NCBI RefSeq assembly: GCF_030028105.1
Contig: NC_092381.1
Location: 62,026,505 to 62,090,504 of the forward strand
DNA from: Mobula birostris
Taxonomy: Eukaryota
Direction: 5' to 3'
Length of the DNA: 64,000 nt
Positions 14,001 to 56,700 of this stretch are shown one piece after another (positions within the stretch are counted from its first letter, which is position 1; each line of letters starts with the position of its first letter). The notes under the pieces are model-generated. The model had not been told where the DNA came from. It was given only the letters and a program-made list of their open reading frames with translations, and did not search any database. The translations under genes were made by a program, and so were the position numbers.

Positions 14001-17000
14001 AACCAAATCAAAGGCCGCCGTATGAATTACACTGCTACATCCAGATTCCACCACCGACCCATTCACAGAGACACTAATTCCTTCAGATCCAGTTCAAGAG
14101 ACACCATGGGGCATCTTATCCTCCATCTTAAATTCTCCTGTCTTTCTAGGCAGTAAAAGTTACACACCAAAGCAATTCATAAAAATTAACATGCTGTCAA
14201 CTCCTTCCCACTAATTTCAGTGGATGGTGTTACAGCAGCAGCACACGTGTGATGTTCTAGCCTACTTCAATAATACACAACACTCTAGTGGTAGTTGCAC
14301 CAGACCTTTGGCACATAACCAATATACAGTAATATCAAGGTTAAATCTATGATCTTCAATAAATGAAATAAATGATTTCTTTACCAAAATTTGAACACTA
14401 TTCATCAATATATCAAATCTTGTAAAAAAAATTGAATAACTCCTCACCTCGATTTACAACAAACTTGCTAAGCTGCCTTTCTTGTGACTACAGTATACCA
14501 TTGCAACTCTTTCCCCGAATGTTCACTTCCACTTATGGAAAAGTGTGCTAGTTAACCTCGTTATTGGGGGCTCCTTTACCCATGCAATTAGGTAAAGTTG
14601 TTAATTTAAACTTATATCCTGTGATTAAGTATTCTTTACAAATTTGGCTCCAGTTCTGCAATTTTTTTAATCTTAAAAAATTTAAACTTTGTAGTTTAAT
14701 TTACCGAAATTACTTTTTTAAGCCTTCTTTGAGTGATCCAATTTTTCTACTTTGGAAAAAGGTATTAATTCTTTTTTGGATTTATTTAAACAAGATAGAT
14801 TGATGTCCTTTCAACAATTAATTGATAAATACTCTCTTTCATATTCACACTTTCTGCAATACCTTCAAGTTAGACATTTTTTACAAAAATATTTAAGTAA
14901 TTTCCCTTACATATTGGAGGCTGACCTGTTAGATACTATTATGAGTATGAATCCTTTGATTAAGGGTTCTATTGGAAGAATTTATAATTTATTATCACAA
15001 TGGGATGTGTTCTTTGTCTAAGATTAAACAGGATTGGGAAAAGGAACTTAATTTGACTTTTATGATGGAGGATTGGATGCGGATATTGAAGTTGGTTAAC
15101 TCTTCTTCAACCAACAGGAATTCTGCAGATGCTGGAAATTCAAGCAACACACATCAAAGTTGCTGGTGAATGCAGCAGGCCAGGCAGCATCTCTAGGAAG
15201 AGGTACAGTCGATGTTTCAGGCCGAGACCCTTCGTCAGGACTAACTGAAGGAAGAGTGAGTAAGGGATTTGAAAGTTGGAGGGGGAGCGGGAGATCCAAA
15301 ATGATAGGAGTAGACAGGAGGGGGAGGGACGGGAAGAAAGACGGGGGGGGGGGGCTCCAGAGAATGGGCAAGGGGTATATTCAGAGGGACAGAGGGAGAA
15401 AAAGGAGAGTGAGAGAAAGAATGTGTGTGTAAAAATAAGTAACAGATGGGGTACGAGGGGGAGGTGGGGCATTAGCGGAAGTTAGAGAAGTCGATGTTCA
15501 TGCCATCAGGTTGGAGGCTACCTAGACGGAATATAAGGTGTTGTTCCTCCAACTTGAGTGTGGCTTCACCTTTACAGTAGAGGAGGCCGTGGATAGACAT
15601 GTCAGAATGGGAATGGGATGTGGAATTAAAATGTGTGGCCACTGGGAGATCCTGCTTTCTCTGGCGGACAGAGAGTAGGTGTTCAGCAAAGCTGTCTCCC
15701 AGTCTGCGTCGGGTCTCGCCAATATATAAAAGGCCACATCGGGAGCACCGGACGCAGTATATCACCCCAGCTGGCTCACAGGTGAAGTGTTGCCTCACCT
15801 GGAAGGACTGTTTGGGACCCTGAATGGTGGTAAGGGAGGAAGTGTAAGGGCATGTGTAGCACTTGTTCCGCTTACACGGATAAGTGCCAGGAGGGAGATC
15901 AGTGGGGAGGGATGGGGGGGACGAATGGACAAGGGAGTTGCGTAGGGAGCAATCCCTGCGGAATGCAGAGAGGTGGGGAGGAAGGATGTGCTTAGTGGTG
16001 GGATCCCGTTGGAGTCTCCGGGTCCAACATATTACCTCACCTACCACCCCACCAGCCTCCGGGTCCAACATATTATTCTCCGTAACTTCCGCCACCTCCA
16101 ACGGGATCCCACCACTAAGCACATCTTTCCCTCCCCCCCCCCCTGCATTCCACAGGGATCGCTCCCTACACAACTCCCTTGTCCATTCGTCCCCCCCATC
16201 CCTCCCCACTGATCTCCCTCCTGGCACTTATCCGTGTAAGCGGAACAAGTGCTACACATGCCCTTACACTTCCTCCCTCACCACCATTCGGGGCCCCAAA
16301 CAGTCCTTCCAGGTGAGGCAACACTTCACCTGTGAGTCGGCTGGGGTGATATACTGCGTCCGGTGCTCCCAATGTGGCCTTTTATATATTGGCGAGACCC
16401 GATGCAGACTGGGAGACCGCTTTGCTGAACACCTATGCTCTGTCCACCAGAGAAAGCAGGATCTCCCAGTGGCCACACATTTTAATTCCACATTCCATTC
16501 CCATTCTGACATGTCTATCCACGGCCTCCTCTACTGTAAAGATGAAGCCACACTCAGGTTGGAGGAACAACACCTTATATTCCGTCTAGGTAGCCTCCAA
16601 CCTGATGGCATGAACATCGACTTCTCTAACTTCCGCTAATGCCCCACCTCCCCCTCGTACCCCATCTGTTACTTATTTTTACACACACATTCTTTCTCTC
16701 ACTCTCCTTTTTCTCCCTCTGTCCCTCTGAATATACCCCTTGCCCATCCTCTGGGTCCTCCCCCCCCCCCCCCGTCTTTCTTCCCGGACCTCCTGTCCCA
16801 TGATCCTCTCGTATCCTTTTTGCCTATCACCTGTCCAGCTCTTGGCTCCATCTCTCCCCCTCCTGTCTTCTCCTATCATTTTGGATCTCCCCCTCTCCCT
16901 CCAACTTTCAAATCCCTTACTCACTCTTCCTTCAGTTAGTCCTGACGAAGGGTCTCGGCCTGAAAAGTTGACTGCACCTCTTCCTAGAGATGCTGCCTGG

Positions 17001-20000
17001 CCTGCTGCGTTCACCAGCAACTTTTATGTGTGTAACTCTTCTTCAATTTGTGCTAGCCATTCATTGATTCAATTTAAAATTGTACATCATTATCATTTGA
17101 CAAAGGAGAGACTTTCTAAAATCTTTCCTAATGTTGATAGTCATTGTGATAGATGTAAAACAGAGATAGCTACACTGACACATGTTTTGGTCTGTTCTAT
17201 ATTGGAACAGTTCTGGAACTCTGTTTTCTCAACAATTTCTAAAGCACTTAAAATTAATTTACAACCTAATAAATTAACTGTGCTTTTTGGAATAATTCCT
17301 CAAAATATTCATGGTATTTCTGTGTCTGACCAACATGTTATTGCATTTGTTACATTGATAGCTAGGAGGGCCTTTGTTACATTGATAGCTAGGAGGGCCA
17401 TTTTGTTGAAGTGGAAGGATACATCAGCTCCCACTTTGTTACAATGGTTCTCTCAAGTGATGCTATGTCTTAGTTTGGAGAAAATTAGAAGTCGAACCTT
17501 TGAACCTTTATTTGATTTTGAGAAAAGATGGGGCTCATTTGCTCGTTATTATCATTTGAGTTAATTGATATAATTTTTCCACGATCTAATTGTAAGTTCT
17601 TTTAGTATATTTTCTTTTCTTGCTGGCGGTTTGATGTTTATTTTTAGAAGCTTTTTGTATGACGCATGGCTCCGGGGTTGTACACCTAATGGGTTCTCTT
17701 CTTTCCTCTCTCACTTTTCTGCTTAGTAGGTTTTTTTTGTTATCACAAAATTTTGTTTTCGATCATTAAGATGATGGTTTTTTTTGAGGCACTGTTAAGT
17801 GTTGTTACTTCGATGTACTCATGTTATTTTTCCTATATATACAATAAAAAGATTTGAAAAGAAAAGGAAAAGTGTGCTAGTATTGGCTACTCTTTTGTCC
17901 CTCCATTGTAAAGATAGCTATGGATTCTTTCTTGCATTCAGTATAATCACTAGCAGGCAAATGTCATTGTTCTACAATAATTTGCAGAAGCATGCAACAG
18001 ATTGCCAAAGAACAATTGAGAAACTGAGAAATAGATAATTCACATCTATGCCACAAACTTGTTAAGAGTTAGCGAAATAGATGCTATAAAAGCCAAGTTA
18101 AAACTTTATCAACCATGAAGAAATAAAGGTACATGACTGCAATCTTATGATAAAGTGGCGTCAATTTGCAAATCAGTATTCAATGAAACCTCCTTGTTCA
18201 GTTGAGTATTAATACAGCATTCGATAAGAGCTGGATAGTCTAATCCTTTGTTCCTTTTCTTGCTTATAGTACAAGTTGGAGTATATTGGAAAGATCATCT
18301 GTGAAAGTTAATTATTCCTTACATAAATAGAAAGAAAATTGACAAAGGGAGTTCAGGTTATCAAGATTCTTCACTGCATGGCTTGTACTCACTTCAAAAT
18401 AAGACTGATGGAGATCTGTGGTATCTAATGTAGTTGGCTTCTTGGTGACTTTGGGTGCACATGTGAGTGTGGAAAGCGAAGGAAATTGCAAATGGAAGAG
18501 CAATATGGAATATTAGAGGCTGCAAACCCTCAACACATTGCTTCATAGTTAGCTTCTTACCTAGTGTTGCCAACTGCTTGAAATGCAAACAGGAGGTAGG
18601 TTGACCCAGAAGATCCAACCGATGGTAGAGAAGCTTACTACTTGGGGCAGTATTTAAATTTTTCAGGTGTCTGACTGGCACTTCAGGTTGGACCATCACA
18701 ATGCACAGAATAAATGATGTGTCTTGCACCTGCATAGGTAAAGGAGTATCAGAATTTTTATAACCAACTTTAAATGTCAGTTCAAATTTCCAGCGACTTT
18801 CTACAAAACTGGTAGAAAGATTTCACTGAACTATCAAGTTCAAGTTTATTGTCATCTGACTGTACCTTTGTACAACCAAACGAACCAAAGTTCCTTTGGA
18901 CCATGATACTCCCACAAAACATATCACACACAGCACATAAACCAAAATAGTACCATAAATAAGTTAATAAAATCTAATTCAAAATATATATAGTGCACAG
19001 CACAGATTAACAGTAAATTGCTGGTTGTCCTAGTGGCAGGACCTTGATGGTGGCAGGGTATTCATTAGCCTCACTGCTCAAGACTAATGGTTTCCATCTC
19101 TGCAATGACCTCAATGACTGAACATAGTATTGTTTTCAGTAATACAGTTAAAAGGGCAGGATTGAGGGGTACAAAATTAGTCAGTGGACAGCAGAATTAA
19201 ATCAAAATGGGGCCAAATTTTTGAGGTCACATCAGTTACACATGTGGAAGCTAAGAAGCAAGAGCTCTAGTTTTGAAACACCACCCAAGCGTAATGCACA
19301 CAAAATGTTGGAGGAACTTAGCAGGTTAGGCAGCATCTCGGGAAATGAATGAACAGTGGAGATGTCAGGCTGAGGCCCTTCTTCAGGACTGAAAGGAAAG
19401 GGGAAGATGTCAGAATAAATGGGTGGGTGGAGGGAAAGGTGGATTAGCTAGAATGTGATAGATGAAGCCTAGTGGCTGGAGAAGAAGAAATCTGATGACA
19501 GAGGACAGTGGACCATGAGAGAAAGGGAAGGAGAAGGAGGGGCACGGGGGAAGGTGATAGGCAGGTAAGTAGAAAAGATAAGAGGCTAGAGTGGGGAATT
19601 GAAGAGTGAAGAGAAAGGGAGAAAAATTACCGTAAGTTGGAGAAATCCATTTTCATGTTATCAGGTTGGAAACTACCTAGACGGAATATGAGGTGTTGCC
19701 CCTCCACCCTGAGAGTGGCAAAAGTAGCAGCCATGGATTGACACATCGGAATGGGATAGGGATAGGAATTAAAATGGCTGGCCACCGGAAATTTCATTTT
19801 TGGCTGATGGAGTGGATGTGCTCAACAAAGTGGTCCCCTAATTCATGCTGGGTCTCACCAGTGTAGAGGAAGCCACAACAGGAGATACAAATGACAAAAC
19901 CAATAGATTCCCAGGTGAGGTGTTGTCTCACCTGGAAGGAATGTTTGGGGCCCTGAATGGCGGTGAGAGAGGAGGTGAATGGGCAGGTGTAGCACTTCTG

Positions 20001-26000: not shown

Positions 26001-29000
26001 TGCAGGTTCCAGCAGTATAGATACATTTTGGGAACGGGGCCCTGGATAACCAGAACTCCTCCGCAACTTGCATGAGGCCAGACTGAGTGCTGTCCAGTTG
26101 CTCATGGAATACCTCACATTCAAACTCAGTATTGCCTTATCTAATGACCAAGCACATGCCCATTTCACTCTTTGCTCAGTGGTAACGTCCTCAGAGTTAA
26201 GGTGTTCACAAATTACTCCAAAAACATCAGCACATAATGCAAGCTTACATTTAAAGGCAGCACTGAGAAGCTGCTACACTGTTGTTGGAGATGCCATCTC
26301 TCAGAAGAATTATCAACAAAAGACCCCAATACACTGAAAGGGGAATATATTAATAAAATCCAGTAGTATTCACAATTGTTCTGGGCCACATTTATCTAAC
26401 AGCTAATATTGCAAGAGCTTACCCAGTTACATATCACTGTGTTGATTCCAGAGACAACTTAACCCGTCTATTTCCCGATGCAACAGTACCCATAAAAATT
26501 GCCATGAACTACCTTGGAACATCTTAAAAAATTTTGAAAAAAGGTTTTTTTTTTAAAATGCTGGATTTTTTCCCCCTTTCTCATGGAATCTGAGCCTTGA
26601 TTGACTTTACCTCCTCACATAGTTGAACACTTCCGTTAAGTTCAGTAAAACACAGATGAGTTTCAATATAGATACTTTTCAACCTCATAATTCATTGCTG
26701 GTTCATTTGACATACAGTAGCCATGAATTTTTAAACAGACCTTGTGGAAGATGCATACATTGCTGCATTGATAATGCAACGGCCATTTGCCAACGAAATG
26801 AAAGAGGTACACCATTTTTGATAGGGATGCTAATAAGAAACAAGGGAATATTGGGAAGAGAAAACACAGAAAACTTCAAAAGGAAAGACCAAACCTACCA
26901 TCACCCATTTCATCCGTGTATGGTAGACTAAACACAGCTTCATCTATCATTCGGTTTGGCAGGTTTGTGTAAAACCGTCCTACAGTGGTCTCCAAGTTAC
27001 TCAACTGGTTCAATACCATCATTGTTCCTTTTACAACAGGGAGCGACGTGCGATCAGGAACTCCGTATTTTGCTGAATTCTGTTCTGCTAAATCTCGAAG
27101 AAAGGCAAGCTCCTTCAAACCAGTTATGCCCTCTAAAATAAAACAAATAATATTAAAGCTGGAAATAGTTGTGTTACTGACAAAACAAATGAGATTCTGC
27201 TCTATTTAATGCATATTTGACAGGAAAGCAAAATGGAAAAGTATTTTGAAAACCCTCTACTATACTACCATAGCTCCCCCCCCCCCCACTGCTAAAGTCT
27301 GTGTGTTTTGCATTCTCTTGCAAGGCATTCAGAGGATCCTCAAAAACAGGCCAATGTACTAGAGATGTACCCATTCTTTTTTTTTAATCACCACCTTATC
27401 ATCTTATACATGTCATCTCTGGTAGTAGAGTGAAATAATGCTTAAGATGCTAACACAAGAAAATCTGCAGATGCTGAAAATCCAATGCAACACACAAAAT
27501 GCTGGAGAAACTCAGCAGGCCAGGCAGCATCCCTGTTAAAAGAGTAAACAGTTGACATTTCAGGCTGAGACCCTTCTGCAGATATGCCGTTAATTCTCAA
27601 AAGTTCATTCACTCAAGTTAATAATGATAGCCGATAAATTGATATGGCAACTAATTCTTTCATAATTTTAATTACTCCACATACCCACTCTACCTCCGAA
27701 TTCTTTGATCAATCATATGTATCATTGCTTTGAACATTTCCAAATCATTTAACATGATCAGACAATATCCTTCAAACAAGTTACCAGCGGAAGCACTCTA
27801 TCATGCTGTTATGAAACCTGTCCAATTTGCTTTCAAATTGCTCTGTGGTATAGATGATAGTACAAACTTTGACATTTTCTTCAACACTAGGATCTCCCTG
27901 CCAATTCAATAATCTCCATCATTATTCAAAGACCATAAGATATAGGAGCCGAATTAGGCCATTTGGCCCATCGAGTCTGCTCCACCATTTCATCATGGCT
28001 GACCCAATTTTCCTCCCAGCCCCAATCTCCTGCCTTCTCCCCGTATCCCTTCAAGCCCTGACCAATCAAGAATCTAACTACTTTATCCATTCTTCTGATA
28101 GATATTCAATTCGAGCATAGTACACACTGGAGTGGCTGTTCAGCCCATGATGCCATGCTGATCTTGATGCCAATTTACACTAAATGTCCTCCTCCTGTGT
28201 ATCATCGATATCCTCTATTCCCTTCAATACGTGTATGTCTATCTACAAGCTTTTTAAACTGCCGGCTTCCACTACCACCCCTGGTAACTCATTCCAGGCA
28301 TCTACTACTCTTTGAGTGACAAAACGTGCCCTCCATGTTGCTTCTAAACTTCCCACTCCAACCTTAAAAGCATGTCCTTCTCTCTGAGAAAAAGAATCTG
28401 ACCATCTATGCCTCTATCAGATCTACCCTCATCCTCTAATGCTTTAGGCAGAACCATTCAAGTTTGTCTAATCTTTCCTTATAGCTCTAATCCAGACAGC
28501 ATCTTGTTAATCCTCGTTCGTGCCCTTTCCAGTCTCCATACCATTCCTAAAATGGGACAACCAGACCTGCACGCACTACTCTCCAGGTAGTCTGACTAAA
28601 GTTGCACATAGCTCCAGCGTAACTTCCTTACTCATACTCAACCCCATCAATGAAGGCAAACGTGCCATACACCTTCTTTACCACCTTATCTACTTGCACA
28701 GCCACTTCTAGTGAACTATGACCCTAGACCCTAAGATACCCTTGTACCTCAATATTATTGAGAGGTCTACTATTAATATTCGACTTCACTAAGTGCAACA
28801 CCTCACACTTGCACAGATTAAACTCCTGTGCCTATATCTGTAACTGATCCACATCCCGCTGAGTTCTTTGATAGCCTTTTACTCTGTCCACAATATACTA
28901 ATCATGGTGTCATCCACACTCTTGTTAAACTACTCAGCTACATTTTTCATCCAAATCCTTGATAAATGGCGTTGCCCCATATACCTTAGGTCAACCACTT

Positions 29001-35000: not shown

Positions 35001-38000
35001 CGACTTTATACTGCCAAGGAATGTGGTCATTTTCCTTTTAGTCTCACTGGTGGCCGGAGACAAGTATGTCTTGTAGCACTGGTCCAGTGAGCATGTCCGG
35101 ATGGTATCTGCCACAGCCAGCACAGAAATCTGTGAACAAAACAATATATTATTATTGAAATTCTTCACTGTATAGCTCGTGTTGAAGTCAACCTATTCTG
35201 TTTCCATTGATCAAATTACAATTACTCAATATTTAAAAATGAATAAGTTTGATCCCAGATATTTTTCCCCTTCAGTTTCCTCCCATTTCTAAAGTATAAC
35301 TTAATTAGCCTGGTCCACCAACCTGATAACTGATGGATCACAAGCCGACACTCTACTTTCATCTCCTAACCAGATAATCTATCACCTTATGTCTAATTAA
35401 GTTGGTTCTGCTCGTTTTGAAGAATTATATTAGATCTTTACTAAGGATCTTAGACTAGATTAGATTATGAGGATACTCAGTCCTCATTTATTGTCATTTA
35501 GTAATGCATGCATTAAGAAATGATACAATGTTCCTCCAGTATGATATCACAGAAACACAAGACAGACCAAGACTAAAACTGACAAAAACCACATAATTAT
35601 AACACATAGTTACAACAGTGTAAAGCAATACCATAATTTGATAAAAAGCAGACCATGGGCACAGTAAAAAAAAGTCTCCAAGTCCCTATAGCCCCATCAT
35701 CTCACGCAGACGGCAGAAGGAAGAAAAACTCTCCCTGCCATGAATCTCCAGCGCCGCAAACTTGCCGATGCAGCAACCTGGAAGCACCCGACCACAGCCG
35801 ACTGAGTCCGTCCAAAACCTTCGAGCCTCCGACCAGCCCTCCGACACCGAGTACCATCTCAGCCAGGCACTTCGACCCCGGCCCCAGCCACCAAGCAACA
35901 GGCAAAGCCAAGGACTCGGGGCCTTATCCTCCAGAGATTCTGGATCACACAGTAGCAGCGGCAGCGAAACAGGCATTTCAGAAGTTTCACCAGATGTTCC
36001 TCCGTGCTTCTCACATCTGTCTCCATCAAATCAGGATTGTGCACGGCACCCTACTTGACAGATGACAGATATTCATTCCGGAGTGGCTGCTGCGCACTGC
36101 GTCGTGCCGCCATCTTCTCTGGAGTTTCTATTTGGATATACATGTATTGAAAAGGTAAATGTCTAAGTATGTGAGTGAGCATGTGTGCATACCTGGGTCC
36201 TTGTTAGACCCAAGAAGTCTAAAAATTGAGAACAGAGTAAGTTTGAAATATTAAAATGCTGAAAATCTGGAGCAAAAACAGGAAATGTTAGAAAAACTCA
36301 ACAGGTCAGACAGCATCTATGGAAAAAATAAGCAGTGAAAATTTTGGGTGTGTGACCTTTTGTCAGAACTCAGTAAGCTCTGCTTCCTTCTCAGAAGCAC
36401 CAATAAAATGGGGACATCTCCCATTTAACATCCTTTGAGGAGGTTTTGCATTTCCAGTTTTTAAATGATTACTAGAGCAGGAACAAACCACCCACCGAAG
36501 GTAATTCATTTGTACTCACGTTATCTGGCCTCAGTACTTTGAAAACATAGATAATATTTCTACACCAGTTGTGTATCGTTTGGTAGGATGACTTGATGTA
36601 GGATAGATTCCACATTTACCATACAGATGGGGCTGAGTAGAGCTTACCTTGTCATGTTCATCAATAGAGGTTAAGATTACTTGTGCAGCATCTTTGGCTA
36701 TTTGAAGCTGTGTGTCTGTGGCTGAAGTCCCATGATCCACCACGACCACAATATGCTTTGATTGTGGCCTCACTGTGGAAACGTATACAGGCCTGCACCA
36801 AAAGAATGTCAAAAAGCTTGTAAGGGAAGAATGGTAGACAATAATTCTTCCACATTTTCCCAATATATAATCAATGTTCCCTCACACCTGATTCACATCT
36901 GTGAAGGTACAAAATGCCTGTGTGCATACAAATGTCACTGCTTCCAGGTATCAATCTGTGATTAATTAGCTTGATCAACTAGTACTTACAAATCAGAAAG
37001 ATCTATTTTCTACTAAGAAATCTCATAACTGGGACCTTGAACTCAGATCATGTGGGGAGGGGAAGAAGAACAGAAAATGGTAGATAGACTCAGCTGGTCT
37101 GGCCACATCTGTGGCAACAGAAAAGAAGCTCATTTTTCAGGTCAATAATCTTCCATCACACCAATGCTGATGACAAGTTATTAACCCAAAATGTTAAATT
37201 TATTTCATACCCCACGATTGCTGCCTAATGGAGTATTCTGTGTGTATTGTAATTTTTAATTTCAGTGCCCCAGAATTCCCCTTACTTTTCTATTTTTTTA
37301 AAATCTGAGATTATTCAAATTTAAGGAAAATAATACCGGGTGATCAGAAATTTAACAGCACATCCCAGAAGTTATTAGAGGGAAATTACACTAAACGTTA
37401 AAAATAATAAATTGAAGATCAAACATCGTTATCTGTTTCTTATTCAGTAATAATCTGACTATAATAGACAAATTATTTATTATGCTGCAGTTTCATCTTC
37501 AGCTGGAGTTCTTAAACAGAAACAAAATGGTTTCTAAAGACATTTCTTAATACATTCATCTATGCATTAATCTAGTAAACCTACTTGATATATTTTTATT
37601 AACATATTTAGTTTAATCAATGTGTTGAAACTAATAAGGTGAAAACTATCGGATAATCAATCATTAAAAAGAAAATGCAAAGCCCTTAAGAGGACAAAAC
37701 TAGAAATTCCCACCTGCTCCGATGTTCATAGCCACCTTTGCAGCGAAATTTATGTGCTGGGAAAATGGTGAAGATCCCTTCTTCTGAACTGAAATATTGC
37801 CACTTAATGCCAGGATTTGACTTAAAGTTGTCAGCAAGAACTGTTGGGTTAAAGAAGTAAGATTGTTTAAAAAATAAATGGAAAAAAATTACTGGGGAAT
37901 CTCATACAATTTTTATGGCAGGCTCAGTGTAATCCTGCCTGTAGAAATTCTGAGAGAGATGATATATGACAAAATCATAAGAAGTAGGCTACTTGGATCA

Positions 38001-44000: not shown

Positions 44001-47000
44001 CAACATACCAGATGGCTGTTATTTTCCCTTTTGGTGAAAGGAACCCTTAGGAGGCAATGATCATAATATGACTGAATCCATACTGCAATTTGAGAGGGAG
44101 AAACACAACTCACATGTATCAGTATTGCAATGGAATAAATGGAATTACAGAGCTACGAGAGAGGAGCTTGTCCAGGTGGATTAGAGGAAGAAACTGGTGG
44201 GGATGACAGTAGAGCAGAGTTGGCTGAAGTTTCTGGGAATAGTTCACAAGGCGCAGGTTAGGTACGTCCCACAGAAGTAGTTGTTCTCAAAAGGCAGGAG
44301 TAAGCAACTGTGGCTGACACAGGAAGGTAAGGACTGCATAAAAGCCCAGGAAAGGGCATATAAAGTCGCAAAGGTGAGTGCCAAATTGGATGAATGGGAA
44401 GCTTATAAAACCCAACAAAAGGCAATGAGAAAAGCTATAAGAATGGAAGAGATGAAATATGAGGGCAGACTAGCCAATAATATAAAGCAGGATACCAAAA
44501 GTTTTTTCAGTTATATAAAGAGTAAAAGGGAGGTGAGATTTGATATTGGATCACTGGAAAATGATGCTGGCTGTCGAGGTAGCAATAGGGGATAAAGAAA
44601 TGGCAGATTAACTTAATGGGTACTTTGCACCTGTCTTCACTGTGGAAGACACTAGCAGCATGCCAGAGCTCTGTGAGTGTCAAGGAACAGGAGTGGGAGC
44701 CATTGCTATTATAAAGGAAAAAGTGCACAGCAAACTCAAAGGTCTTAAGGTGGATAAGTCACCTGGAGCAGATGGACTACATCCCAGAGTCCCAAAAGAG
44801 GTTGCTGAAGTGATAACGGATGCATTGGTCATTCTCTTTCAAGATTCACTTATCTGGCATGGTCCCAGAGGACTGGAAGATGGCAAATGTCACTCCAGTC
44901 TTTCAGAAGGGGCAGGGGGGGAGGGTGGAAGGCAAAAGAAAGGAAATTACGGATCAGTTAGCCCAACCTCAGTGATTGGGAGTGTTGGAATCTATCATTA
45001 AGGATGAGGTTTCGGGGTACTTGGAGACTAATGATAAAACAAGTCAGTCAGCATGGTTTCTGTAAAAGGAAATCTTGCTTGACAAATCTGTTAGAATTCT
45101 TTGAGGAAGTAACAAGCAGGGTGGACAAAGGAAAGCCAGTGGATGTCATTTACTTGGATTTTCAGAAAGCTTTTGATAAGGTGCCACACATGAGGCTGCT
45201 CAACAAGATAAAATTCTATGGCAATATTGGAAAGATACTGGCATGGATAGCAGAATGGCTGACAGGTAGGAGGCAGTGAGTGGGAATAAAGGGGGCCTTT
45301 TCTGATTGGCTGTCGGTGACTAGTAGTGTTCCTCAGGGATCAGAGTTGTGACCGTTACTTTTTCACATTGTGAAATGATTGTCAATGATTTAGATAACGG
45401 AATTGATGGCTTTGTGGCAATGTTTGCAGATGGTATGAAGATAGGTGGAGGGATAAGTAGTGCTGAGGAAGCAATGCGATTGCTTTAGACAAATTAGAAA
45501 AATGGGCAAAAAAGTGGTCGATGGAATATACTGTTGGGAAATGTATGATGATGCATTTTGGTGAAATATAACAATAATACAGACTATTATCTAAATGGGA
45601 GAGAAGGTTCAAACATCAGAGGTGCAAAGGGACTTGGGAGTCCTTGCGCAAGACTCCCAGAAGGTTAATTTACAGATTGAGTCTGTGTTAAAGGCAGCAA
45701 ATGCAGTGTTGCTATTTATTTCAAGGGGAATAGAATATAAAAGGAAGGAGATAATGCTGAGCCTCTATAAGACACTAGTCAGGACAGCACTTGGAGAGTA
45801 TTGTGAACAGTTTTGGGCCTCATATATCAGAAAGGATGTGTTGTCATTGGAGAGAGTCCAGAGGAAGTTCACGATGATGATTCTGGGAGTGAAGGGTTTA
45901 ACATACAAGGAACATTTGGGAGCTTTGAGCCTGTACTCACTGGAATTTAGAAGAATGCCAGGTGATCTCAGTGAAACCTACTGAATGTTGAAAATACTAG
46001 GTGAATGTGGATAAGATGTTTCCTGTGGTGTGGGTATTCAGAACTAGTGGGTACAGCCTCAAAATTGAGGGACAACCCTTTTGAACAGCGGTAAGGAAGA
46101 ATTTTTTTAGCCAGAGAATGGTAAATCTGTGGAATGCTCTGCCACAGACTGCAGTGGAGGCCAAGACCGTGGGTATATTGAAGGTGGAAGTTGATAGTTT
46201 CCTGATCGATCAGGGCATCAAAGGATATGGCGAGAAGGCAGGTGGTATAGGGTTGAGTGGGATCTGGGATCAGCCATGATGGAATGGCGGAGCAGACTTG
46301 ATGGGCTGAATGGCCTAATTCTGCTCCTATGTCTTACGGTCTAAATATCTCAAGTGCACACTATTAGCAGAAGATTAATAAAAAGTTAAGAAAATAATTT
46401 TCCCCAAAGGTTTAGTGAAGTTGGATAACAAGTGCAATAAAATCTTTGTGGCACTGCATGTGTTGCTCTGGTTTTCCAGCATCTGCAGAATCTGTTTTGC
46501 TTACAACTTTGAACTTGCAGTTTCTGTTTTTAAATTAGTTTTAAACTTACTGCTGCATTTAATGATTAACTTTGTGTTCATGTTGATATACTTTCAGTGA
46601 TGAACCTACTTCACTCTTGATCAGTTGACGCGGGCAAAGTAGCTCTTTGAAAGGAAACTGCTGCAACTCCATAAAATATGACTTTGACTAATTGTCCATC
46701 GGGAGGTGAGAATAACCTCGCACTCCATTTCGTGCAACAACTGCAGTTCACCAAAGATACCCATATTTAATCTCCAAGACCTGCTAAAGCTATCCATGCA
46801 GGAATTACATCTAAACAATTACACTAGCTAGATATATGCCTACATATGACCACTTGACAAGTGCCATCAATTGGAACCTTTAACACCGTACAATAAACTC
46901 TGATTTCACTGCAATGCAGAATGCCTTCTTTGCAGCTCCTGATTACCTGAGACAGGGAGTGAATAAAAACAAATCACTGACAAGGCTTCTGGTGCCTTGA

Positions 47001-53738: not shown

Positions 53739-56700
53739 TATAACCATATAACAATTACAGCACGGAAACAGGCCATCTTGGCCCTTCTAGTCCATGCCGA
53801 ACTCTTACTCTCACCTAGTCCCACCGACCTGCACTCAGCCCATAACCCTCCATTCCATTCCTGTCCATATACCTATCCAATTTAACTTTAAATGACAACG
53901 TAGAACCTGCCTCAACCACTTCTCCTGGAAGCTCGTTCCACACAGCTACCACTCTCTGAGTAAAGAAGTTCCACCTCATGTTACCACTAAACTTTTGCCC
54001 TTTAACTCTTAACTCATGTCCTCTTGTTTGAATCTCCCCTACTCGCAATGGAAAAAGCCTGTCCACATCAACTCTATCTATCCCCCTCATAATTTTAAAT
54101 ACCTCTATCAAGTCCCCCGTCAACCTTCTATGCTCCAAAGAATAAAGACCTTTCTCTGTAAACAACAGGAATTCTGCAGATGCTGGAAATTCAAGCAACA
54201 CACATCAAAGTTGAGGGTCTCGGCCTGAAACGTCGACTGCTCCTCTTCCTACAGATGCTGCCTGGCCTGCTGCGTTCACCAGCAACTTTGATGTGTGTTA
54301 CCTTTCTCTGTAACTTAGGCGATGAAACCCAGGTAACATTCTAGTAAATCTTCTCTGTACTCTCTCTATTTTGTTAACATCTTTCCTGTAATTTGGTGAC
54401 CAGAACTGTACACAATACTCCAAATTTGGCCTCACCAATGCCTTGTACAATTTCAACATTACATCCCAACTCCTATACTCAATGCTGTGATTTATAAAGG
54501 CCAGCATACCAAAAGCCTTCTTCACCACCCTATTCACATAAGATTCCACCTTCAGGGAACTATGCACCATTATTCCTAGATCCCTCTGTTCTACTGCATT
54601 CCTCAATGCCCTACCATTTACCATGTATGTCCTATTTTGATTAGTCCTACCAAAATGTAGCACCTCACATTTATCAGCATTAAACTCCATCTGCCATCTT
54701 TCAGCCCACTCTTCTAACTGGCCTAAATCTCTCTGCAAGCTTTGAAAACCTACTTCATTATCCACAATGCCGCCTATCTTAGAATCACCTGCACACTTAT
54801 TAATCCAATTTACCACCCATTCATCCAAATCATTAATGTATATGACAAACAACACTGGACCCAGTACAGATCCCTGAGGCACACCACTAGTCACTGGCCT
54901 CCAATATGACAAAAAGCTATCCACCACTAATCCCTGACGTCTCCCATCCAGCCACTGCTGAACCCATTTTACTACTTCAATATTAATACCTAACAAATGA
55001 ATCTTCCTAACTAACCTTCCGTGTGGAACCTTGTCAAAGGCCTTACTGAAGTTCATATAGACAACGTCCACCACTTTACCCTCGTCAACTTTCCTAGTAA
55101 CCTCTTCAAAAAATTCAATAAGATTTGTCAAACATGACCTTCCACACACAAATCCATGTTGACTGTTCCTAATCAGACCCTGTCTACCCAGATAATTATA
55201 TATACCATCTCTAAGAATACTTTCCATCAATTTACCCACCACTGATGTCAAACTTACTGGCCAATAATTGCTAGGTTTACTCTTAGAACCCTTTTTAAAC
55301 AATGGAACCACAGGAGCAATACGCCAATCCTCCAGCACTATCCCCATTTCTAATGACATTTGAAATATTTCTGTCAGAGCCCCTGCTATTTCTATACTAA
55401 CTACCCTCAAGGTCCTAGGGAATATCCTGTCAGGATCCGGAGACTTATCCACTTTTATATTCCTTAAAAGCGCCAGTACTTCCTCTTCTATAATCCTCAT
55501 AGTTTCCAATAACTACCCTATTTGTTTCCCTTACCTTACACAATTCAATATCCTTCTCCTTAGTGAATACTGTACTGAAGAAAAGAAATTGTTCAGAATC
55601 TCCCCCATCTCTTTTGGCTCCACACATAGCTGTCCATTCTGATTCTCTAAGGGACCAATTTTATCCCTCACTATCCTTTTTCTACTAATATAACTGTAGA
55701 AACCCTTTGGATTTATTTTCACTTACTTACCAAAGCAACCTCATATCTTCTTTTAGCTTTTCTAACTTCTTTCTTAAGATTCTTTTTAAATTCTTTATAT
55801 TTCTCCAGTTCCTCATTTACTCCACACTGCCTATATTTATTGTAGATATCTCTCTTTTTCCAAACCAAGTTTCCAATATCCCTTGAAAACTATGGCTCTC
55901 GCAAACTTTTAACCTTTCCTTTCAACCTAACAGGAACATAAAGATTCTGTACCCTCAAAATTTCACCTTTAAGTGACCTCCATTTCTCGATGACATCCTT
56001 CCCATAAAACAAATTGTCCCAATCCACTCCTTCTAAATCCTTTCACATCTCCTCAAAGTTAGCATTTCTCTGATCAAAAATCTCAACCCTGGGTCCAGAC
56101 CTATCCTTCTCCATAATTATATTGAAACTAATGGCATTGTGATCACTGGACCCGAAGTGCTCCCCAACACAAACCTCCGTCACCTGACCTATCTCATTCC
56201 CTAACAAGAGATCCAACACTACTCCTTCTCCAGTTGGTACCTCTATGTATTGCTACAAAAAACTATCCTGCACACATTTTACAAACTCCAAACCATCCAG
56301 CCCTTATACAGTATGGGCTTCCCAGTCTATGTGTGGAAAATTAAAATCTCTCACAATCACAACCTTGTGCTTACTACAAATATCTGCTATCTCCTTACAA
56401 ATTTGCTCCTCCAATTTTCACTCCCCATTTGGTGGTCTATAATACACCCCTATAAGTGTTACTACACCTTTCCCATTCCTCAATTCCACCCAAATAGCCT
56501 CCCTAGACGAGCCCTCTAATCTATCCTGCCAGAGCACCACTATAATATTTTCTCTGACAAGCAATGCAACACCTTCCCCTTTTGTCCCACCAATTCTATC
56601 ACACCTGAAGCAATGAAATCCAGGAATATTTAGTTGCCAATCACACTTCTCTTGTAACCATGTTTCACTGATAGCTACCACATCATACTTCCAGGTATCA

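What the first reader, a model, noticed from the sequence alone, without database searches (positions are those of the whole stretch)
54148..54313. 138-bp miniature with the same asymmetric fold-back ends and 14-bp TSD: candidate family of Penelope-mobilised pseudo-MITEs
Seen: the insert starts with the same inverted tail (caacaggaattctgcagatgctggaaattcaagcaacacacatcaaagttg), flips, and stops at essentially the same point (...gatgtgtgt) as the 1.9-kb element. Both TSDs are 14 bp, pyrimidine-rich and end in AA. It looks like a TIR-bearing MITE but consists only of PLE pLTR sequence, including the 3' half of the hammerhead. Inference: a stereotyped two-step or twin-priming integration by the GIY-YIG enzyme with a fixed 14-nt stagger yields fold-backs of any size. 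The older palindrome near 37070-37285 may be another example.
Basis: partly seen in the sequence, partly recalled or inferred. Interest (0 to 1): 0.7.

Follow-up and report, generated by a model that had tools for sequence, protein, structure and literature searches.

The report
Double-primed Penelope retrotransposon stub
This 138-base mirror-image insert is real, but it is a one-off stub of a very abundant Penelope-type jumping gene rather than a self-copying family, and its two different ends likely record both cut DNA strands each starting to copy the element's RNA at a different site.

Summary
Observation confirmed: a 138-bp insert between identical 14-bp repeats, made only of Penelope-like (PLE) terminal sequence, inside a LINE. 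It is not a MITE or replicating family: its junction occurs exactly at 2 places in the 4.0-Gb genome, and 52 of 55 sampled miniatures have distinct junctions. The parent is a Neptune/Nematis-type PLE with 31,763 exact tail copies. The layout (inverted truncated copy, tail at one end) is published. Measured here: in a tail-independent sample, all 36 fold-backs with two standard ends had one tail end plus one tail-less end (none tail/tail or tail-less/tail-less), whereas single-arm copies split 25:21. Duplication lengths fit a 13-14-nt stagger; fixed 14 is rejected. Target ends resemble the RNA beyond each junction. The 'pyrimidine-rich, AA-ending' target is not general. Likely mechanism: two target-primed cDNAs, one per nicked strand, from the two known start sites, then end-joined. 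This scan has noted such fold-backs repeatedly, in this genome and at least 8 genomes.

The parts
54148..54161 (+). Left copy of the target-site duplication (12-14 bp; last AA shared with the element end)
   Evidence: single copy in empty host-LINE paralogues
54162..54213 (-). Tail-bearing (distal-start, 'T') arm, 52 nt; reads on + as cDNA extending from the top-strand 3' end
   Evidence: 98% to the left end of the 1.9-kb element
54162..54196 (-). 35-nt unpaired PLE tail, the stretch between the two start regions; in long copies it runs on into the 5' end of the ORF
54197..54213 (+). Left half of the perfect 17-bp inverted repeat (overlap of the two arms)
54214..54299 (+). Tail-less (proximal-start, 'P') arm, 86 nt of sense pLTR; joined to the T arm with no microhomology
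   Evidence: junction read against the element
54214..54238 (+). 3' half of a minimal hammerhead motif (stem II, GAAAC-GTC, predicted cut after 54234); core missing, so predicted inactive
   Evidence: motif by eye against PMC4209133; no Rfam hit in the 1.9-kb element
54283..54299 (+). Right half of the 17-bp inverted repeat
54300..54313 (+). Right copy of the target-site duplication
53815..55512 (-). Host LINE (reverse-transcriptase ORF; CR1-type by recall) that the insert interrupts; lacks 14 bp just left of the duplication compared with most copies
   Evidence: RVT_1 E=2.6e-23; ORFs
15097..17046 (+). 1.9-kb fold-back of the same PLE family: T arm left, P arm right, GIY-YIG remnant, 14-bp duplication
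37069..37287 (.). Old, diverged probable fold-back of a related PLE family (P-type arm left, tail-bearing arm right)
   Evidence: left arm significant, right arm by pairwise alignment only

Best explanation
The insert is a 138-bp head-to-head pair of 3' ends of a Neptune/Nematis-type Penelope-like element between duplicated target bases, likely made in one event when each of two nicked target strands primed its own cDNA. SHOWN: both outer ends are element 3' ends facing outward; one carries the tail, the other stops about 38 nt earlier; the junction is not shared by a family. INFERRED: (1) the GIY-YIG/RT protein nicks both strands 13-14 nt apart; (2) one 3'-OH starts at the proximal site and the other at the distal site, helped by short imperfect pairing with the RNA; (3) copying often ends near the 5' edge of the hammerhead, likely the RNA's 5' end, which yields the miniature class; (4) the two cDNA ends, here 52 and 86 nt, are trimmed and end-joined, and fill-in makes the duplication; (5) the product would be a dead end, because it lacks the sequence 3' of the tail that a related PLE needs on its RNA. 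Whether both cDNAs come from one RNA or from two RNAs of a dimer is open.
For: End rule: 100 core-pattern hits resolved to 86 elements: 36 P/T, 0 P/P, 0 T/T, 25 single T, 21 single P, 4 others; chance of 36 of 36 under independent choice 1e-11. Stagger: duplications in 89 of 93 P/T fold-backs, median 14; simulation through the same caller fits 13/14 (p=0.94 at 3.5% mutation, 0.02 at 2.5%) and 12-14, and rejects fixed 14 and flat 11-15 or 10-16 at both rates. Empty paralogous sites confirm the duplication exactly in 25 of 42 testable cases. Pairing: the first 8 target bases match the RNA continuation 309 times at P and 249 at T over 76 sites, against 179+/-11 and 184+/-11 permuted and 177-190 simulated. 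5' ends: 58 of 138 short arms stop in a 4-nt window. Arms share a length class in 49 of 56 (Fisher p=3.5e-8) and haplotype (60 of 366 sites discordant, 159 expected). Parent: RT plus GIY-YIG in one frame with a CX4CXXC linker. Literature: an anole PLE cuts and extends both strands, starts at two sites that bracket the tail, is a predicted dimer and needs RNA 3' of the start sites (PMC11167929).
Against: No biochemistry on this family. Two true tail/tail elements, both without a duplication, lie among the 100 tail-anchored hits. About 5 of 30 long fold-backs have arms of different haplotype, against a single RNA in every case. PMC11167929 saw no strand difference in start site and priming without homology, in a different clade. 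A general excess of wobble pairs was not found (28 of 83, 26.2 expected). This copy's own junction is not at the 5'-end peak, so later trimming of a larger copy is not excluded. The unbiased samples come from the first 8.3 Mb of one contig. The RNA 5' end is not shown. The rare 14-bp deletion beside this site is unexplained.
Confidence: 0.72

Rival explanations
1. A replicating non-autonomous family (pseudo-MITE or SINE-like): the 138-bp unit is itself copied by the PLE protein or a transposase.
For: Small size, 17-bp inverted repeat, clean duplication; about 11,000 miniatures by extrapolation (36 of 100 tail hits); one other locus has the identical junction.
Against: The junction 29-mer occurs exactly at 2 sites and at 4 with one mismatch; the second site has another right end, other internal bases and its own duplication; 52 distinct junction pairs among 55 miniatures; the four identical inserts L018-L021 share their flanks.
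Confidence: 0.04
2. Collapse of a larger fold-back: a long palindromic insertion later lost its centre.
For: Large and small copies share the same ends; symmetric loss would also give correlated arm lengths (rho 0.65); this copy's junction is off the 5'-end peak.
Against: Single-arm copies, which are not palindromes, stop in the same zone (13 of 33 within 126-145 nt of the tail end); long fold-backs persist intact. It does not explain the end rule, only the size.
Confidence: 0.12
3. Single priming, then the cDNA folds back and copies itself (snap-back).
For: Arms are more alike than chance; a related PLE lacks evidence for how the second strand is made (PMC11167929).
Against: In this copy the P arm reaches 69 nt further upstream than the T arm, and the T arm holds a tail that the P arm lacks, so neither can be a copy of the other; the P arm reaches further in 28 of 56; some pairs differ in haplotype.
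Confidence: 0.07
4. Two independent insertions or end-joining of free cDNA fragments at a break.
For: Blunt central junction; adjacent 14-bp deletion; the tail/tail elements without duplications may be of this kind.
Against: One duplication frames both arms in 89 of 93; the strict P/T rule; a symmetric base bias outside both nicks.
Confidence: 0.05

Closest known systems
Inverted-pLTR-plus-tail insertions of endonuclease-bearing PLEs (Adineta Pen2a/Pen2, PMC3846280; Fig. 2 legend of PMC8557442; D. virilis form C, PMC2377424)
   Same: Inverted 5'-truncated copy, 30-40-nt tail at one end only, target duplication; in Pen2a the inverted pLTR is 37 bp shorter.
   Different: Here both arms are stubs (52 and 86 nt), with no ORF; duplications are 13-14 rather than 8-10 bp; copy number permits a count, giving 36 of 36 one-tail pairs.
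Anole Poseidon PLE in vitro (PAc, PMC11167929)
   Same: Two internal start sites bracketing the tail, downstream of a hammerhead; both strands cut and extended; AT-rich targets (duplications 67% A+T against 56% in flanks).
   Different: Different clade; here the two ends of one insertion use different sites and target ends partly match the RNA, whereas PAc showed no strand difference and no homology.
LINE-1 twin priming (recalled; only a search listing seen)
   Same: Second target strand primes a second cDNA, giving an inversion inside one duplication.
   Different: L1 arms cover non-overlapping parts of the RNA and end in poly(A); here arms overlap, both are 3' ends, no poly(A).
MITEs (definition recalled)
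   Same: Short, non-coding, inverted repeat, duplication.
   Different: Repeat is not terminal on the left, no uniform family, parent is a retroelement.
Non-LTR retrozymes (bioRxiv 10.64898/2026.07.22.740005)
   Same: Non-coding, pLTR-related, hammerhead-derived.
   Different: Retrozymes are tandem units with whole hammerheads; this is head-to-head with half a motif.

Membership tests
EN+ Penelope-like element (parent family) | One ORF with RT and C-terminal GIY-YIG endonuclease | tested here: met
   RVT_1 E=1e-5 and GIY-YIG E=1e-4 in one 635-aa frame of L248; same in L255
EN+ Penelope-like element (parent family) | [quoted passage not shown] | tested here: met
   ADKGG and [18 protein letters not shown] in P0001; features from PMC8557442
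EN+ Penelope-like element (parent family) | Tail equals the start of the unique 5' region; partial tandem layout | tested here: met
   L267, L271 and L188: tail runs into the ORF's 5' part; unit about 3.5 kb
EN+ Penelope-like element (parent family) | Minimal type I hammerhead in the pLTR | tested here: inconclusive
   Motif fits the PMC4209133 description by eye; Rfam no hit; the monomer does not fold as a hammerhead; activity untested
EN+ PLE inverted insertion form | Inverted 5'-truncated copy, 30-40-nt tail at one end, target duplication | tested here: met
   35-nt tail, 14-bp duplication; 56 of 100 family copies
Neptune/Nematis clades | CX2-5CxxC linker between RT and EN | tested here: met
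   CKRNKCYTC in P0001
Neptune/Nematis clades | RT phylogeny separating Neptune from Nematis | not tested
   No reference proteins were fetched
Penelope/Poseidon clade | Absence of the CX2-5CxxC linker | tested here: not met
   Linker present
MITE | Many copies of uniform length and sequence | tested here: not met
   2 exact junction copies genome-wide; 52 junctions among 55 miniatures
MITE | Terminal inverted repeats shared with a DNA-transposase element | tested here: not met
   Left repeat lies 35 nt inside the end; ends belong to an RT element
Non-LTR retrozyme | At least two tandem units with complete hammerheads | tested here: not met
   Head-to-head, half a motif (definition)
LINE-1 twin-priming product | Non-overlapping arms and poly(A) end | tested here: not met
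   Arms overlap by 17 nt, no poly(A); definition recalled

The most novel reading that the evidence does not exclude
Endonuclease-bearing PLEs integrate by obligatory two-ended priming: a dimer nicks a loosely symmetric site 13-14 nt apart and assigns one strand to the proximal start and the other to the distal start, with a few bases of target-RNA pairing setting the exact end. The 'optional' tail would then show only which cDNA survived, single-arm copies being events that lost one arm, and the thousands of miniatures would be run-offs to the RNA's 5' end at the hammerhead edge.
Probability: 0.4. Interest if true: 0.68.

Novelty: new member of a known kind. Interest (0 to 1): 0.38.

Why it matters
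How PLEs form their inverted structures and one-sided tail is named as unresolved in PMC8557442. A family with over 30,000 young copies turns that into countable rules (one tail per fold-back, 13-14-nt stagger, partial target-RNA pairing, a sharp 5' stop), each testable in the existing in vitro system. In practice, such stubs could be mis-annotated as MITEs or DNA transposons, or as miRNA-like hairpins (one search gave sub-threshold miRNA-family hits on the larger copy). The single insert is ordinary.

Tried and rejected
Rfam: no hammerhead hit, only sub-threshold hairpin families. Poseidon label: my first reading, dropped on finding the linker. Reading the spread of duplication lengths (9-22) as real variability: dropped after simulation showed the caller spreads a narrow stagger. 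ACC as part of the element end: it is target-derived where the left end was visible; genome counts after GTGTT are ACC 626, CCA 275, AGG 12, so not random, but CCA may be inflated by an internal variant (not checked) and a general wobble excess was not found. The match profile is confounded by point mutations and was replaced. Splicing as the cause of the 5' stop: an acceptor-like tract lies 2-3 nt upstream of the peak, but no shared upstream exon was seen. Hammerhead cleavage as the main stop: the peak is about 30 nt upstream of the predicted cut. Expression: no RNA holder listed; four runs were contigs only and cannot show RNA starts. No solved relative. The 102-nt exact count (1,905) added nothing. 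A direct genome-wide count of miniatures was not obtained, so their number is an extrapolation. Searches for a printed statement of the one-tail rule, the 13-14-nt stagger or shark/ray miniatures found none beyond the papers cited; subscription papers (e.g. Arkhipova 2006, not read) and the supplements of PMC11167929 (not opened) may hold it.

Full report
Notation. r = distance from the tail end along a natural 1.93-kb copy (L150) read antisense. T end = an element 3' end at r<=20 (tail present); P end = a 3' end at r28-60 (tail absent).

The observation. The insert 54162-54299 (138 bp) lies between two copies of ACCTTTCTCTGTAA. It is a 52-nt antisense T arm (r7-58) joined without microhomology to an 86-nt sense P arm (r127-42). 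The overlap gives a perfect 17-bp inverted repeat and leaves a 35-nt tail. The 1.9-kb element at 15111-17032 has the same ends, a 14-bp duplication and a GIY-YIG remnant. The host is a LINE RT frame on the minus strand. Empty host copies hold the 14-mer once, so the duplication is real, but most also carry 14 further bases just to its left (24 of 27 non-self hits). The short form exists without any insert at 9 other fetched sites but is rare (11 against 5,581 exact matches): it either pre-dated the insertion or arose with it.

The parent. The genome (G000, 4.0 Gb) holds 31,763 exact copies of a 34-nt tail word and 45,464 of a 30-nt core word. Long copies span about 3.5 kb, the tail running into the ORF's 5' part. 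One frame carries RT and GIY-YIG, DKG, the internal cysteines and a CX4CXXC linker, which by PMC8557442 (passages) means Neptune or Nematis, not Penelope/Poseidon. An earlier scan note (e1-8630582) prompted that check.

Is it a family? No. The junction 29-mer occurs exactly at 2 sites, 4 with one mismatch; the second has a different right end and its own duplication. Among 93 P/T fold-backs pooled from all fetched loci (the pool includes 30 loci chosen for one end sequence), 55 are 300 bp or less and show 52 different junction pairs. L018-L021 are identical but share flanks. Scaling 36 miniatures per 100 tail hits gives roughly 11,000 miniatures; this is an extrapolation from one contig end.

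Census. The first 100 tail hits on contig C1 gave 56 asymmetric fold-backs, 33 single-arm, 6 other inverted and 5 symmetric hits. The 5 are 3 elements: one is an inverted arm beside a 5' pLTR that runs into the body, two are true T/T without a duplication. The first 100 core hits, chosen without regard to the tail, resolved to 86 elements: 36 P/T, 0 P/P, 0 T/T, 25 single T, 21 single P, 4 others. Independent choice of start site would give 36 of 36 with probability 1e-11. P ends spread over r36-53 (mode 42), T ends mostly over r0-8.

Duplication length. 89 of 93 fold-backs have one, median 14, 27 exactly 14, range 9-22. Simulated insertions run through the same caller show that chance matches and mutation spread a narrow stagger: a 13/14 mix fits (p=0.94 at 3.5% mutation, 0.02 at 2.5%), 12-14 fits at both rates, fixed 13 is marginal or rejected, fixed 14 and flat 11-15 or 10-16 are rejected. 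Of 89 reconstructed empty sites, 42 had three or more paralogues; 25 matched with no net length change, 9 within 2 nt, 8 differed more. Targets are A+T-rich (67% against 56%) but not pyrimidine-rich (2 of 52) nor AA-ending (8 of 52). Outside both nicks there is a symmetric bias: A at -3 in 42 and 40 of 76, T at -6 in 7 and 4 of 76, against about 22-25 and 18-23 simulated.

Priming. Over 76 sites the first 8 target bases match the RNA continuation 309 times at P and 249 at T, against 179 and 184 permuted and 177-190 simulated; positions 3-7 alone give 171 and 134 against 95-108 simulated. The signal is clear at P, weaker at T. A wobble excess was not found.

5' ends. Of 261 arms carrying the stem II anchor, 123 run on and 138 stop within 40 nt, 58 of them at r136-139 (the set includes 30 loci chosen by likeness to the miniature, which inflate r128-129). 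This is the 5' edge of hammerhead helix I, and TTAGTCC fits the initiator consensus YYANWYY (recalled) with +1 at r138. An RNA 5' end is the simplest reading; a stall is the rival; no data here decide it.

One RNA or two. Arm reach is correlated (rho 0.65; both short 32, both long 17, mixed 7 of 56) and arms share haplotype at 306 of 366 linked sites, 60 discordant against 159 expected. Yet L162, L163, L177, L179 and L227 have arms of visibly different haplotype. So the same source is usual, two templates occur, and later gene conversion is not excluded. Snap-back fails for this copy because each arm holds sequence the other lacks.

Mechanism. Read from each end of the duplication, the insert is cDNA extending a 3'-OH: T arm on the top strand, P arm on the bottom. 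That geometry is shown. Nicking, ordered use of the two sites, run-off, end-joining and dead-end status are inferred. They agree with PMC11167929 (main text read, parts 1-2 of 4; supplements not opened): both strands cut and extended, two start sites bracketing the tail, predicted dimer, RNA needed to +172, beyond the start sites. They differ from it in the end-specific choice of site and in target-RNA pairing.

What is known. The inverted copy with a one-sided tail is described in PMC3846280 (parts 1-3 of 5 read), PMC8557442 (passages) and PMC2377424 (passages); minimal hammerheads, including pairs 100-700 bp apart on opposite strands, in PMC4209133 (parts 1-2 of 4); retrozymes in bioRxiv 10.64898/2026.07.22.740005 (part 1 of 5). 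Seven searches found no printed count of the one-tail rule or stagger; the library lacks most subscription papers. Earlier scan notes report the same fold-backs in this and at least 8 genomes; they are not independent support.

The 37-kb palindrome aligns to the pLTR in both orientations at low identity, P-type arm left and tail-bearing arm right. Only the left arm is significant (E=6.8e-6); the self-palindrome score of 39 compares with 25.8+/-4.1 in 500 shuffles (maximum 40); no convincing duplication. Probably an old relative.

Verdict. Real, and a known PLE insertion form at its smallest; not a MITE family. The value lies in the family-wide rules as tests of PLE integration. Interest 0.38.

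Noticed in passing
window 54140-54161; L277-L286: The host LINE copy lacks 14 bp (between two ACCT words) directly left of the duplication; this short form is rare genome-wide (11 against 5,581) and occurs without inserts elsewhere.
   Followed up: partly
76 reconstructed empty sites: Symmetric base bias outside both nicks (A at -3, T depleted at -6), suggesting a loosely palindromic endonuclease target.
   Followed up: partly
L107, L184, L245, L135 (arm ends at r95-104): A few fold-backs pair a tail end with an end a few bases 3' of the predicted hammerhead cut site: a possible third, minor priming region.
   Followed up: no
L162 and L163 (G000 C1 about 6.506 and 6.526 Mb): Two neighbouring fold-backs each combine the same two variants (one with a 34-nt deletion), in swapped roles.
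   Followed up: partly
L156, L169/L170: Two true tail/tail fold-backs, both without a detectable target duplication.
   Followed up: partly
L018-L021 (G000 C17, four sites 5-9 Mb apart): Identical miniature fold-back with identical LINE flanks at four places: duplicated segments or carriage inside a LINE.
   Followed up: no
window 19297-19467, 27449-27581, 36245-36370, 46459-46496: Older, diverged single-arm stubs of related PLE families, several also ending near the hammerhead's 5' edge.
   Followed up: partly
window 16900-16936: Polypyrimidine tract ending in CAG just upstream of hammerhead helix I, like the intron end reported for D. virilis Penelope; no spliced copies seen.
   Followed up: partly
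L267, L271, L272 5' ORF region: Proline-rich stretch of about 213 bp present in variable tandem number among long copies.
   Followed up: no
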